Part shown: piece by piece, positions 16,241-37,518 of the stretch
Layout: each line of letters starts with the position of its first letter
Numbering within the stretch: position 1 is the first letter of the stretch
Source: the human T2T-CHM13v2.0 reference genome, Homo sapiens
Length of the DNA stretch: 64,000 nucleotides
Reading direction: 5' to 3' (one strand)
Assembly: GCF_009914755.1 (NCBI RefSeq)
Contig: NC_060930.1
Made by a program: the position numbers and the translations under genes
The notes under the pieces: generated by a model
Database searches by the model: none
What the model was told of the DNA's origin: nothing
Seen by the model: the letters and a program-made list of their open reading frames with translations, nothing else

Positions 16241-16605
16241 TGATATGGTTTGGCTCTGTGTCCCCACCCAAATCTCATCTTGTAGCTCCCATAATTCCCA
16301 CGTATTGTGGGAGGCCTGGTGGGAAATGACTGAATCAAGGGGGTGGGTCTTTCCCATGCTGTTCTCGTGACAATGAATAAGTCTCATGAGATCTGATGGT
16401 TTTAAAAACGGGAGTTTCCCAACATAAGCTTTCTCTTTGCCTGTGGCCATCCACATAAGATGTGACTTGCTCCTCCTTGCCTTCCACCATGATTGTGAGG
16501 CTTCCCAAGCCACATGGAACTCTGAGTTCTCCATTAAACCTCTTTCTTTTGTAAATTGCCCAGTCTCAGAGAAGTCTTTATCGGCAACATGAAAATGAAC
16601 CGGTA
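16241..16605 (+). mobile_element. THE1 (MaLR) solo LTR
   Basis: TGATATGGTTTGGCTCTGTGTCCCCACCCAAATCTCATCTTGTAGCTCCC...AAATTGCCCAGTCTC. Confidence 0.88.
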
Positions 16606-16860
16606 TTAGTATATAGTAAATTTTTGCAATAGATTATTAAACAGTAGTGAATAGAGCACAATTTATATATCAATATAGATGAATGTCAAAAACCCAAATT
16701 TGAGTGTAAGAAGCAGGTCACAGAACACCACATGCAGTATGAATCAATTTACATGTAATTAATAAAAGACAAAACTACACAATATGTTATTTAAGAATAT
16801 TTATCACAAATGATAAAACTAGGAAAAATATGTAAGGAGCTATTTATTTAAAAATTCAGC

Positions 16861-34019: not shown

Positions 34020-35030
34020 GTTAAGGCTAGGAAAGGGAGGCCGTGCTGCGCTGAGTCGCGGGAAGCTCCTTGAGCTTCAAGGACTTGAGTCGGGGAGGGA
34101 GTCTCTCCGCTCTTGCTACTCTACCCGCCACTTGGTTTCCGCACTGAGGACTCGGCTGCGAAATGGGAGGAAGCAGGCCTCCTTTTCGTGGGTTCCCAGA
34201 AGCCCCCATTTTGCAGTTCCCCCACCTCGCTTTCACAGGTTGCAGCCCCCTTAGAAAAACGCCGCTGCAGAGGCGGGGGCTGCCCATCAGCCCCGGCCAT
34301 GGCTAGCCAGCCCTGTGCCCGCCCGGCGCCTTCGTCTCTCGGGCCGGACGTGCAGGTCGGCGCTGAGTCCAGCCGCAGTGACACGCACCTCTTTTCCTTT
34401 CCTCCACTCCGCCTCCCCGGCCGGCCTACAGACTGCTCCTTCCCGATGAGCCAGCGCAGCTTCCCCGCCTCCTTCTGGAACAGCGCGTACCAGGCGCCAG
34501 TGCCCCCGCCGCTGGGCAGCCCTCTGGCCACCGCGCACTCGGAGCTGCCCTTCGCCGCCGCCGACCCCTACTCGCCCGCCGCGCTGCATGGCCACCTGCA
34601 CCAGGGCGCCACGGAGCCCTGGCACCACGCGCACCCGCACCACGCGCACCCGCATCACCCCTACGCCCTGGGCGGCGCCCTCGGCGCCCAGGCCGCCCCC
34701 TACCCGCGCCCCGCCGCCGTGCACGAAGTCTACGCGCCGCACTTCGACCCGCGCTATGGGCCGCTGCTGATGCCAGCCGCCTCGGGGCGCCCGGCCCGCC
34801 TCGCAACCGCCCCGGCGCCCGCGCCCGGCAGTCCTCCCTGCGAGCTCTCCGGCAAAGGCGAGCCGGCGGGCGCCGCGTGGGCCGGGCCCGGGGGACCCTT
34901 CGCGAGCCCCTCGGGGGACGTGGCCCAGGGTCTGGGCCTCAGCGTGGACTCAGGTAAGCAGAGGAAGAAGTTTGGTCTCCGCGGAGCCGCTCGGCCCCGT
35001 ACCCGACCCTGGGCTGTGCCTAGACCCCTT
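34020..35030. promoter_or_regulatory. Intragenic CpG island over VGLL2 exon 3
   Basis: Very high GC content and CpG retention. Confidence 0.8.
34432..34953 (+). CDS. VGLL2: VGLL2 coding exon 3 (FPASFWNS motif, His/Pro/Ala-rich region); 522 nt, symmetric phase so it can be skipped in frame (143-aa isoform)
   Basis: Acceptor cctacag|AC at 34431/34432; donor CAG|GTAAGC at 34953; phase 1 at both ends; encodes DCSFPMSQRSFPASFWNS...GLSVDS. Confidence 0.96.
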
Positions 35031-35185
35031 AATCCTCCTTGGAGACCTTGAATTCTGTGGCCCAAGGATCTGCATGCCACGGTCGTGTTTCCACTGATAG
35101 ATGGCCCTGTGCCATGCGTGTAGGCGGGATGAGAAAGTAGGACCCTACCCTAACCTGGCTGGTAAATGTTACAGAGGACTTTTAA

Positions 35186-35220
<35 letters not shown>

Positions 35221-35242
35221 TAATAATAATAATAATAATAAA
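35186..35242. repeat. (AAT)n microsatellite
   Basis: About 18 AAT units with one GAT interruption. Confidence 0.95.
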
Positions 35243-35572: not shown

Positions 35573-36008
35573 ATCTAGAGTAGCTGCTGAGAGTACAATT
35601 TAAAATCTTCTGTGGCTTGGGGGATCTTGTCACCTAGTGATAGTTGTAAGGAAAGAAAAATGTGATCCTGGTATCAAGTTAATTGCCAAATAAAATAGAT
35701 CTCTTAAAAATGTAAATCTTAAAGAATATTTTAAAATGACAATCCTAAGTCTTTGGCTTAAAGTATTTGCAACGTACAGTCTAATAAGGGCTTGCTTTTT
35801 TGCCTTCTTTTCTTATTTTTAGGGCAAATGAAAGAAATAGTTATATAATAAGTGCAATCACTGGCTTTATAGTCTGCCCACTGCCCCTTTCCTCAAGTGA
35901 TTTGACTTTTCGGTTTGCTTTGCTTTTACTTTCGGTCACCGCCCCCCTCCCCACCCCGCCCCCAACTTTAGGTGAAGTCTGTGACATTCACAATAAAACA
36001 GTGGTGTT

Positions 36009-36198
36009 TTGTCCTTCTTTCCTTAAATATCTTGTGCCTTCCCTCCCCCATTCCTTCTTTCTCCCTCCCTTTCTCTTCCTCCTCCTCCTCTTCTTCTTTG
36101 TTCTCCTCCTTCTCCTTCTCCTTCTTCTTCTCTCTCTCCCTCTCCCTCTCTTTCCCTCCCTCTCCACCTCCTCTCTCTTTTATCTTCTCTCTATTTTC
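36009..36198 (+). repeat. CT-rich polypyrimidine tract
   Basis: About 190 nt, almost entirely C/T. Confidence 0.95.
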
Positions 36199-36200
36199 AG

Positions 36201-36244
36201 GTTTGCAGCCTCAGGACAAAAGCAAGGATGTGTACTGGTTTTAG
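36201..36244 (+). CDS. VGLL2: Alternative VGLL2 terminal coding segment GLQPQDKSKDVYWF* via upstream acceptor (318-aa isoform)
   Basis: Strong acceptor ctctctattttcag|GT after a ~190-nt pyrimidine tract; correct phase 1; peptide resembles Vestigial-family C-termini. Confidence 0.7.
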
Positions 36245-36345
36245 ACCGCCCACCTTCTTCCCTGTAGGTCTCTGCATAGTGCAATTGATGGCACTCAGAG
36301 CTGAAATGGAGTGGGTTTGTAACAGCTTCTGATCTTGGTTTGCAG

Positions 36346-36386
36346 CTCGTCGTTATTCCCTCTGTGGTGCATCCCTCCTGAGCTGA
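36346..36386 (+). CDS. VGLL2: VGLL2 terminal coding exon, reference-type C-terminus ARRYSLCGASLLS*
   Basis: Acceptor ggtttgcag|CT at 36345/36346; exons sum to 81+310+522+41=954 nt = 317 aa, the known human length. Confidence 0.88.
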
Positions 36387-37433
36387 TCTGCTGACCCAGG
36401 GTTTCCCCTTCCCCTTCCCTTCTGACCAGCCTTGGAGGCTCAGCATCTGTGCCTCTCACTCCGTGGATGAGGACATGGGGGAAGGCAGAGACTTCAGACT
36501 TCTCAGTGTGTTGGGAAAACCAAAAACCACAACTACAGAAATTCATCTAAAAATAAGTCCTGCTGCTGAAAGAGCAAATCCAAAGACTGAGTTATGTTTA
36601 ATGACTTTTGGCCGAATCACTGGAAATATCTGTGGTGAGATTGCTGAGTCAGGTGATGTGATATCATAAGCTTTCTTGGAACGGGGGAAAGAAAATGAAA
36701 CTTTTTGGTGTGAATATTTTTTATGCTGATGTGAATTATTTTGTTAGGTAGTGTGATTATAGCACTACTACTGTCAGATTTTAAATTGTATGTGTACTTG
36801 CATCTAAGACTGTGGTAGAGAAGTAAAGAGAAGTCAATTCCTTCTTCCTCACCTCTCAGCCTCCAGATCCCTTCCTGCCCATCCCTTCCCTACAATGCCC
36901 ACTCCAGACGCAAAGATACACTTTTTTCCTTTGGACTGTGAACATGGAAGCCTCAGCCTGAATGTGAGTGGCAAGTGGCTTATCTGGAGCCACCTGCCCA
37001 AGTCTTACTAAAATGCAGCTGTTGTTAGACAACTGTTGAAAACTCCAGAAATACATCACCCAAGGTGGCAGTTCTCAGTATTTGGCAGAACAATTGCAAT
37101 TGCACTGGGTATATTATATATATATATGTATGCATATATATCATATTTTTTACAAGGAACATTTTATGATGAAAGAAGAAACCCTTCTCTGCCTTCTCTC
37201 CCACGAATTCTGTCCCTGTATCCTCTGGATGTAAAAAGCAAGGAGAGACCCCAACTGTCTCCATGGAGAAGAACTAGGAATCACCACAAGGGGAAGAAAT
37301 GTACATGAAGTCTCCATTACCTCGAATTTTTTTCTCAGTCTCACTGGTTGTGATTTGGTCACTTTAGTGTTGGAACAGGGGAAAGGGTCTGTGCGTGGGC
37401 AAAGCTGAAGGTGATGAGGAAGAAGAGACGAAC

Positions 37434-37518
37434 ATTAAAGATGTCTATTTACTATGAGCTCACTGTGTTGTTTCATAAAAAGAAAATAAATAACTTAGTT
37501 TTTTTCTAGTAGAATAAA
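37434..37518 (+). terminator. VGLL2: VGLL2 polyadenylation signal cluster
   Basis: ATTAAA 37434-37439, AATAAA 37485-37490 and 37513-37518 with GT/T-rich sequence nearby, about 1.05-1.1 kb after the stop. Confidence 0.7.

What the first reader, a model, noticed from the sequence alone, without database searches (positions are those of the whole stretch)
36002..36386. Alternative VGLL2 3' acceptor giving the Vestigial-family C-terminus GLQPQDKSKDVYWF
Seen: an acceptor at 36200 lies 145 nt upstream of the reference-type one (36345). It is in the correct phase for the exon 2 and exon 3 donors and gives ...SVDS-GLQPQDKSKDVYWF* (318 aa). There is no AG from 36002 to 36198, so this is the first AG after a ~190-nt pyrimidine tract; the 36345 site has a much weaker tract. 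Recalled, not searched: human VGLL3 ends ...GLQHQDKSKESPWY and Drosophila Vestigial ends ...SSKDLYWF, while ARRYSLCGASLLS resembles neither. Inference: this may be the evolutionarily conserved isoform, with a terminal aromatic short linear motif absent from the commonly used 317-aa protein. Long AG-exclusion zones often indicate distant branch points and PTBP-regulated splicing.
Basis: partly seen in the sequence, partly recalled or inferred. Interest (0 to 1): 0.8.

Follow-up and report, generated by a model that had tools for sequence, protein, structure and literature searches.

The report
VGLL2 alternative acceptor, ancestral C-terminus
An already annotated alternative splice acceptor in the last intron of human VGLL2 gives the protein the short aromatic tail shared by Vestigial-type proteins from ticks to vertebrates, while the usual human tail is a second, vertebrate-wide one, so the gene has long switched between two conserved endings.

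Summary
Joining the exon 3 donor (34953) to the AG at 36199-36200 gives a 318-aa protein ending G-LQPQDKSKDVYWF. No AG lies in 36002-36198, which is 197 nt and 92% pyrimidine.

The acceptor is not new. The hub's RefSeq table already lists an exon 36201-37457.

The tail is the family's ancestral one:
- 50 of 126 vertebrate VGLL2 models end in KDLYWF.
- Tick, acorn-worm and amphioxus proteins do too, as does Daphnia VG.
- 69 of 120 VGLL3 models end in W[FY].
- Human VGLL3 has its last intron at the same split glycine codon.

ARRY..LLS-type ends occur in 40 of the 126 models, from lamprey to mammals. They occur in 0 of 120 VGLL3 models. A third end, read-through of the exon 3 donor, occurs in 19 of the 126.

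So this is an ancient choice of C-terminus. Human carries V where 66 of 66 fetched relatives carry L.

Isoform usage, branch point, PTB control and the motif's function were not testable here. My best guess for the function is a docking or activation motif.

The parts
34432..34953 (+). VGLL2 exon 3. Its donor is CAG|GTAAGC and leaves the first base (G) of a split Gly codon (phase 1).
   Evidence: Human VGLL3 exon 3 ends in the same way, GAT ACA G|GTAAGC.
34953..35051 (+). Open frame that results if the exon 3 donor is not used. It is 32 codons, ends in PPWRP, and is followed by a stop. This is the third kind of C-terminus (type C).
   Evidence: GK..-type read-through ends occur in 19 of 126 vertebrate VGLL2 models. 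A mouse study describes Vgll2 as a three-exon gene (PMC5540913, figure legend passage).
35992..35997 (+). AATAAA hexamer just upstream of the pyrimidine tract. Others lie at 35237 and 35689. These are possible poly(A) signals for an intron-retaining three-exon transcript.
   Evidence: motif scan only. Use was not shown.
36002..36198 (+). AG-free tract of 197 nt, 92.4% pyrimidine (96 T, 86 C, 8 A, 7 G). It is low-complexity TCY repeats. It serves as the polypyrimidine tract of the upstream acceptor and is a possible PTB or PCBP binding platform.
   Evidence: 12 TCTT, 6 CTCTCT, 8 CCTCC.
36179..36183 (+). TTTAT, a yUnAy match with its A at 36182, 18 nt before the acceptor G. It is a candidate proximal branch point.
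   Evidence: motif match only. Not mapped.
36199..36200 (+). AG of the upstream (ancestral-type) 3' splice site.
   Evidence: The hub annotation lists an exon 36201-37457 in another RefSeq transcript.
36201..36244 (+). Coding part of the long last exon. GT completes the Gly codon, then LQPQDKSKDVYWF and the stop TAG (36242-36244). The Val codon GTG lies at 36230-36232.
   Evidence: Conservation is shown. It is 27 of 44 nt identical to the human VGLL3 last coding exon.
36344..36345 (+). AG of the downstream (reference, MANE-type) 3' splice site. The nearest upstream AG starts at 36324.
   Evidence: yUnAy matches have their A at 36332 (13 nt upstream) and at 36288 (57 nt upstream).
36346..36386 (+). 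Coding part of the short last exon. CT completes an Ala codon, then RRYSLCGASLLS and the stop. This is the vertebrate-wide, VGLL2-specific type B terminus, which holds R-R-x-S-hydrophobic.
   Evidence: It occurs in 40 of 126 vertebrate VGLL2 models and in 0 of 120 VGLL3 models.

Best explanation
The AG at 36199-36200 is a real, already annotated alternative 3' splice site of the last VGLL2 intron, and it is the ancestral one.

What is shown:
- It sits at the same split glycine codon as the last intron of the paralogue VGLL3.
- Its 14-codon reading frame encodes the tail that ends Vestigial, VGLL2 and VGLL3 proteins across bilaterians. The core is K-[DE]-x-x-W-[FY] at the free carboxyl end. In VGLL2 it is G-L-Q-x-Q-D-K-S-K-D-L-Y-W-F.
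- The reference acceptor, 145 nt downstream, encodes a second tail, A-R-R-Y-[ST]-[LF]-C-x-x-x-L-L-S. That tail is specific to VGLL2 and is present from lamprey to human.
- Failure to use the exon 3 donor gives a third tail.
- VGLL2 therefore carries an ancient choice between C-termini. All of the choices lie in the last exon, so none of them should trigger nonsense-mediated decay.

What is inferred:
- Each acceptor has its own branch point and pyrimidine tract.
- The long CU-rich tract makes the upstream site intrinsically strong, but also open to repression by CU-binding proteins such as PTBP1.
- The W-F tail works as a short docking motif that contributes to coactivator function, as does the C-terminal activation domain reported for Drosophila Vg.
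- The type B tail swaps that motif for a basic, kinase-type site.
For: Sequence and frame.

Annotation: the hub table lists an exon 36201-37457 in another RefSeq transcript.

Type A tail in vertebrate VGLL2:
- It occurs in 50 of 126 cluster representatives.
- G(-13), K(-7), K(-5), L(-3), Y, W and F are invariant in 50 of 50.

Type A tail outside vertebrate VGLL2:
- Named proteins ending KDLYWF come from Ixodes scapularis, Saccoglossus, Glandiceps and Branchiostoma.
- The Daphnia VG C-terminal peptide ends GKDLYWF (bioRxiv 10.1101/160010, methods passage).
- Of the 150 best family representatives found with the TDU exon, 22 end in W[FY]. Among the 40 of at least 250 aa, 18 do.
- 69 of 120 VGLL3 representatives end in W[FY].

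Homology with VGLL3:
- Human VGLL3 has the same donor (G|GTAAGC) and a last exon that starts GT, then LQHQDKSKESPWY and a stop.

Type B tail:
- It occurs in 40 of 126 representatives, including lampreys.
- Percomorph fishes keep the frame and the terminal LLS despite insertions of different lengths. This argues for constraint on the peptide rather than only on the RNA.
- Pogona vitticeps has named models of both kinds, P0336 and P0364.

Function:
Against: - No RNA evidence could be examined, so how much the 36201 junction is used in human tissue is unknown. RefSeq's selected transcript uses 36346.
- The human sequence has V where 66 of 66 fetched proteins ending YW[FY] have L. This could mean relaxed constraint on this tail in the human lineage.
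- Most database proteins are automatic gene models. They show that the peptides are encoded and framed by splice sites, not that they are made.
- Clusters at 90% identity hide primates, so it is unknown whether V is human-specific or polymorphic.
- No result here bears on what the tail binds. A 2013 review states that Vgll proteins have no recognisable activation domain (PMC3672182, passage).
- The study that mapped the Drosophila activation domains (MacKay 2003) is not held.
Confidence: 0.75

Rival explanations
1. In humans the 36201 acceptor is a minor or decaying relic. The ancestral tail is no longer important for human VGLL2, and the reference (type B) isoform does the work.
For: - RefSeq's selected transcript uses 36346 (hub table).
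- Human has V at a position that is L in 66 of 66 fetched relatives.
- Rodent reference-type models use a third, read-through tail. Mammals can therefore evidently do without the type A tail in their main annotated form.
Against: - The acceptor has the consensus YAG|G and a much stronger pyrimidine tract than 36346.
- The frame, the stop and 13 of 14 residues are intact.
- L to V is a conservative change.
- Whale, goat, opossum and echidna models keep the type A tail.
Confidence: 0.2
2. The long AG-free CU tract marks a distant branch point, near 35990 and about 210 nt upstream. PTBP1/2 then repress the upstream acceptor outside differentiated muscle.
For: - The AG-exclusion zone is 197 nt.
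- A yUnAy match, TTCAC, has its A at 35990, just upstream of the zone.
- The tract holds 12 TCTT and 6 CTCTCT motifs.
- That long AG-exclusion zones go with distant branch points and PTB control is general knowledge that I recalled. It was not checked in a paper here.
Against: - A yUnAy match, TTTAT, has its A at 36182, 18 nt upstream.
- A further A lies at 36166, 34 nt upstream (my reading). Both are at ordinary branch-point distances.
- The AG-free length is explained by the low-complexity CT repeat itself.
- Nothing here tests protein binding.
Confidence: 0.3
3. The apparent conservation of the two tails is an artefact of homology-guided gene prediction that copies human or other reference models.
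For: Most hits are automatic models (names such as 'isoform X1' and 'PREDICTED').
Against: - A predictor cannot invent an open frame. The tails differ between lineages yet keep their key residues and their stop.
- The Daphnia tail comes from a cDNA-based study in which an antibody against the peptide gave the same staining as one against the recombinant protein.
- The human VGLL3 tail was read here straight from genomic DNA.
Confidence: 0.03

Closest known systems
VGLL3 last coding exon (human, G000:C3 about 87021357-87021400, minus strand)
   Same: - The donor is the same, G|GTAAGC.
- The Gly codon is split in the same way, in phase 1.
- The micro-ORF is the same 14 codons, G-LQxQDKSK[DE]xxW[FY] and a stop.
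- 27 of 44 nt are identical.
   Different: - The VGLL3 tail is ESPWY rather than DVYWF.
- Its pyrimidine tract is ordinary and T-rich, with the previous AG 66 nt upstream.
- It has no ARRY-type alternative: 0 of 120 models, and none in the 3 kb downstream.
Arthropod Vestigial C-terminus (Daphnia VG, Ixodes) and the C-terminal activation domain reported for Drosophila Vg
   Same: - The proteins end in KDLYWF.
- Drosophila Vg is said to activate through N- and C-terminal domains (PMC3121794, abstract).
   Different: - The Drosophila Vg ending itself was not seen in any call.
- It is not known whether the last six residues are the active part of that domain.
- In vertebrate VGLL2 the tail is optional, through splicing.
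C-terminal PDZ-binding motif of YAP/TAZ (ending T-W-L; recalled, not checked here)
   Same: It is also a TEAD cofactor ending in W followed by a hydrophobic residue at the free carboxyl end. Y-W-F fits the hydrophobic-x-hydrophobic class II pattern by eye.
   Different: - The position -2 class differs.
- VGLL3 has P, A or S at -2.
- No binding test was done, so this is a resemblance only.
Exons with long AG-exclusion zones and distant branch points, often PTB-regulated (recalled general knowledge)
   Same: The AG-exclusion zone is 197 nt, the CU-rich tract has many UCUU and CUCUCU motifs, and there is a competing downstream acceptor.
   Different: Adenines are available at ordinary branch-point distances. 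Nothing was mapped.

Membership tests
Vestigial/Tondu family (Vg, VGLL1-3; Pfam PF07545 Vg_Tdu) | TDU / Vg motif that binds TEAD | tested here: met
   The exon 2 translation (P0001) scores 76.1 bits against a cut-off of 27, E = 1.8e-21, covering profile positions 1-31 of 31.
Vestigial/Tondu family (Vg, VGLL2, VGLL3 branch) | C-terminal K-[DE]-x-x-W-[FY] at the free carboxyl end. I defined this motif here. It is not a curated feature, and no Pfam family covers it. | tested here: met
   The 36201 frame ends KDVYWF. It departs at one position: V where 66 of 66 fetched relatives ending YW[FY] have L.
Vestigial/Tondu family (VGLL2/VGLL3 paralogue pair) | Last intron at the same codon and in the same phase | tested here: met
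   VGLL2 reads TCA G|GTAAGC ... CAG|GT TTG CAG. Human VGLL3 reads ACA G|GTAAGC ... CAG|GT CTA CAG.
Exons with distant branch points / long AG-exclusion zones | AG-exclusion zone of about 100 nt or more upstream of the acceptor | tested here: met
   36002-36198 is 197 nt without AG.
Exons with distant branch points / long AG-exclusion zones | Branch point mapped far upstream of the acceptor | not testable with these tools
   Only motif matches are available: A at 36182 (18 nt upstream) and A at 35990 (210 nt upstream).
PTBP-repressed 3' splice sites | PTBP binding, and a change in splice-site choice on PTBP depletion | not testable with these tools
   Only motif counts are available: 12 TCTT and 6 CTCTCT in 197 nt.
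PDZ-binding C-termini (class II, hydrophobic-x-hydrophobic; consensus recalled) | Pattern at the last three residues, and binding to a PDZ domain | tested here: inconclusive
   Y-W-F fits the pattern by eye. VGLL3 ends (P/A/S)-W-[FY] do not fit at -2. No binding test was done.
Basophilic (PKA-type) kinase sites, R-R-x-S/T-hydrophobic (consensus recalled), in the type B tail | Consensus present and conserved; phosphorylation shown | tested here: inconclusive
   RRY[ST][LF] is present in most tetrapod, bowfin and several teleost type B ends. Lamprey has G and Hoplias has A at the acceptor position. Phosphorylation was not tested.

The most novel reading that the evidence does not exclude
The two acceptors form a regulated switch more than 500 million years old. 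The switch decides whether VGLL2 carries the bilaterian W-F-COOH tail or a vertebrate-specific R-R-x-S/T tail that a kinase can control.

On this reading the W-F tail is a docking motif for a coactivator or a PDZ-like partner, comparable in role to the T-W-L tail of YAP/TAZ. The reference proteins used for human (type B) and mouse (read-through type C) both lack the ancestral tail. Published functional work on VGLL2 would then have missed part of how it activates transcription.
Probability: 0.3. Interest if true: 0.6.

Novelty: already known. Interest (0 to 1): 0.4.

Why it matters
VGLL2 is a TEAD cofactor in muscle and craniofacial development, and it is the 5' partner in fusion-driven infant rhabdomyosarcoma.

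Reviews that I saw say the TDU motif is the only recognisable feature of Vgll proteins, and that how they activate transcription is unknown (PMC3672182, passage). The tail encoded from 36201 is a second element, invariant in vertebrate VGLL2 and shared with invertebrate Vestigial proteins and VGLL3. It is missing from the 317-aa human form that is cloned as full-length VGLL2, and from rodent reference-type models.

Comparing isoforms could therefore reveal a partner or an activity of the family that has gone unexamined. The acceptor itself is already annotated, so the value lies in the evolutionary reading, not in a new transcript.

Tried and rejected
- Paper searches for the tail peptides gave only the Daphnia VG antibody peptide. 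The other hits were unrelated.
- Searches for VGLL2 splice variants, transcript accessions and C-terminal function found no paper that discusses the VGLL2 C-terminal isoforms or the W-F tail. The passages read in PMC5540913, PMC12650688, PMC9952742, PMC7393262, PMC3672182, PMC5665465 and PMC7566471 do not mention it.
- These searches cover only the held open-access library. The 2016 review 'From vestigial to vestigial-like', Maeda 2002 and Mielcarek 2002 were not seen and may describe the motif.
- Guenther 2004, Johnson 2011 and MacKay 2003 are not held.
- The ESM Atlas call on the unnamed 405-aa representative P0150 returned only chordate VGLL2 clusters and a low-confidence model with pLDDT 0.42. 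It gave no functional lead.
- Human VGLL3's last exon was not in the first 10 kb fetched. It was found after fetching 30 kb more.
- I did not fold the proteins or predict complexes. The region is predicted to be disordered, and no partner is named.
- No splice-site scoring model such as MaxEnt was available, so site strength is described only by consensus and pyrimidine content.
- No vertebrate genomes other than the human one were available, so codon-level DNA alignments and a primate check of the V/L position could not be done.

Full report
**1. Observation**

- Exon 3 ends CAG|GTAAGC at 34953, leaving the first base of a codon.
- The AG at 36199-36200 (TTTTCAG|GTT) opens an exon at 36201. 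Its first two bases complete a Gly codon, followed by LQPQDKSKDVYWF and TAG at 36242-36244. The protein is 318 aa.
- The reference acceptor (TTTGCAG|CTC, exon start 36346) lies 145 nt downstream. It gives ARRYSLCGASLLS and a protein of 317 aa.
- Both the exon 2 and exon 3 donors are phase 1. Skipping exon 3 stays in frame: 144 aa with 36201 and 143 aa with 36346.
- No AG occurs in 36002-36198. That stretch is 197 nt, 92.4% pyrimidine, with 96 T and 86 C.
- The last 19 nt before the acceptor are 89.5% pyrimidine at 36201 and 68.4% at 36346.

Is this more than chance?

- The AG-free run is the longest on the + strand of the window. The next is 129 nt.
- In 200 mononucleotide shuffles the longest run averaged 134 nt and reached 248 nt. 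Length alone is therefore not decisive.
- The composition stands out. All 23 windows of 197 nt with at least 90% pyrimidine lie in 35996-36214.
- Tandem Repeats Finder reads the tract as TCY-type low-complexity repeats.

**2. Already annotated**

The hub's RefSeq table lists an exon 36201-37457 in another VGLL2 transcript. The acceptor is therefore not new. The table does not say whether that transcript contains exon 3, so I cannot tell whether the 318-aa form as such is listed for human.

**3. The 36201 tail is the family's ancestral tail**

A search with exon 3 found 42 named or unnamed vertebrate VGLL2 proteins. A search with a lamprey VGLL2 listed the best 120 of 285.

I pooled these and dropped six non-vertebrate proteins and one protein named VGLL3. 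That left 126 cluster representatives, which I sorted by regular expressions:

| Tail type | Count of 126 |
|---|---|
| A, ending KDLYWF | 50 |
| B, ARRY..LLS | 40 |
| C, read-through of the exon 3 donor (GK...) | 19 |
| Other | 17 |

At least six of the 17 'other' look like partial or divergent type B.

In type A, G(-13), K(-7), K(-5), L(-3), Y, W and F are the same in 50 of 50.

Evidence from outside vertebrate VGLL2:

- Named proteins of Ixodes scapularis, Saccoglossus kowalevskii, Glandiceps talaboti and Branchiostoma lanceolatum end in KDLYWF. A chiton protein and a partial tick protein do not.
- A Daphnia study raised an antibody against the VG C-terminal peptide, which ends GKDLYWF (bioRxiv 10.1101/160010, methods passage).
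- An exhaustive search with the TDU exon gave 455 hits. Of the best 150 representatives, many of them fragments, 22 end in W[FY]. Among the 40 of at least 250 aa, 18 do.
- Of 120 VGLL3 representatives, 69 end in W[FY]. A primate model ends GLQHQDKSKESPWY.

I then read the human VGLL3 gene from the window's own genome.

- Its exon 3 ends GAT ACA G|GTAAGC.
- Its last exon begins ...ttccag|GT CTA CAG and encodes LQHQDKSKESPWY and a stop.
- This is the same split Gly codon and phase as 34953|36201 in VGLL2.
- 27 of 44 nt are identical.

The 36201 acceptor is therefore the counterpart of the VGLL3 acceptor. It must predate the split of the two paralogues.

**4. The reference tail is also ancient**

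Type B ends are found in the following:

- two lampreys (ARRYGLCSSSLMS);
- bowfin;
- several teleosts (ARRYTLCGGTILS and the like);
- frogs, a caecilian, lizards, turtles, a gharial and many birds;
- mammals (musk deer, hedgehog, gundi, tree shrew, rhinoceros).

Percomorph fishes have longer versions (A[LR]CYGGLCSS...ALLS). These keep the frame and the terminal LLS, which points to constraint on the peptide.

Pogona vitticeps has named models of both kinds, P0336 and P0364.

No VGLL3 model has such an end (0 of 120). No such frame lies in the 3 kb after the human VGLL3 last coding exon.

Its implied lack of conservation is wrong.

**5. Third tail**

If the exon 3 donor is not used, the frame runs 32 codons to a stop at 35049-35051. 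AATAAA hexamers follow at 35237, 35689 and 35992.

Such ends are the form of several rodent, whale, bear, camel and bat models. A mouse knockout paper describes Vgll2 as a three-exon gene (PMC5540913, figure legend passage).

**6. A human peculiarity**

Human has V (GTG, 36230-36232) at position -3. All 66 fetched proteins that end in YW[FY] have L there, and none of the 396 stored proteins contains the human version. The clusters hide close relatives, so I cannot say whether this is primate-wide, human-specific or a variant of this one assembly.

**7. Mechanism**

Shown:
- two acceptors;
- two conserved frames;
- the upstream site has the better consensus and pyrimidine tract;
- both stops lie in the last exon.

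Inferred:
- The sites use separate branch points. For 36201, an A at 36182 in TTTAT (18 nt upstream) and an A at 36166 (34 nt upstream; my reading) are at usual distances. A distant branch point near 35990 is possible but not needed.
- For 36346, the nearest upstream AG starts at 36324. yUnAy matches have their A at 36332 and at 36288.
- The CU tract has 12 TCTT and 6 CTCTCT motifs. It could bind PTBP1/2 and so repress the stronger site. This is untested.

On function:
- Pfam finds only the TDU motif in these proteins, and nothing over the tail.
- A review states that the TDU motif is the only recognisable feature of Vgll proteins and that their activation mechanism is unknown (PMC3672182).
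- My best reading is that the invariant D-K-S-K-D-L-Y-W-F-COOH is a docking motif that contributes to activation.
- The type B tail holds R-R-x-[ST]-hydrophobic, a basic kinase-type consensus that I recalled rather than tested.

**8. Verdict**

Novelty of the acceptor is lost. The reading should be corrected from 'the conserved isoform against an odd one' to 'an ancient choice between two conserved tails, plus a read-through tail'.

Use in human tissue is the main open point, and it could not be addressed with the tools here.

Noticed in passing
window 36230-36232: Human has Val (GTG) at position -3 of the tail. All 66 fetched proteins ending YW[FY], vertebrate and invertebrate, have Leu there. 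It is unknown whether this is primate-wide, human-specific or a variant of this assembly.
   Followed up: partly
window 34953-35051; AATAAA at 35237, 35689, 35992: Read-through of the exon 3 donor gives a 32-codon tail ending PPWRP. Whale, bear, camel and bat models of the same kind end SPWRPQ, and rodent models end PTLG. The hexamers could serve a three-exon transcript like the one described for mouse.
   Followed up: partly
window 36346-36386: The reference tail holds R-R-Y-S-L, which fits a basic (PKA-type) kinase consensus (recalled). It also holds a Cys six residues from the end. RRY[ST][LF]C is kept in most bony vertebrates, while lamprey has G at the Ser position.
   Followed up: partly
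window 36002-36198, both strands: This is the only stretch of about 200 bp in the window with more than 90% pyrimidine on one strand. It is a polypurine/polypyrimidine tract that might form non-B DNA. This was not examined.
   Followed up: no
window 34443-34481 (exon 3, residues 4-16 of P0002): There is a sub-threshold Pfam match to TEADIR3, the omega-loop TEAD-interacting region: 19.1 bits against a cut-off of 26. It sits where PMC7566471 places the VGLL2 omega loop (residues 135-146).
   Followed up: no
P0035 (Aquila chrysaetos VGLL2 isoform X3): This model reads from exon 3 straight through about 20 codons into the type A exon in another frame. The last intron therefore seems to be only about 60 nt in this bird, against 1247 nt in human.
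   Followed up: no
window 16578-16774: This is a CT-free run of 197 nt on the + strand, which is an AG-free run on the - strand. It is the same length as the tract studied here and lies outside any listed gene.
   Followed up: no
G000:C23:134844656-134844925: The VGLL3 query also hit the X chromosome at E = 1.1e-9. This is presumably the VGLL1 TDU exon. The tail of VGLL1 was not examined.
   Followed up: no
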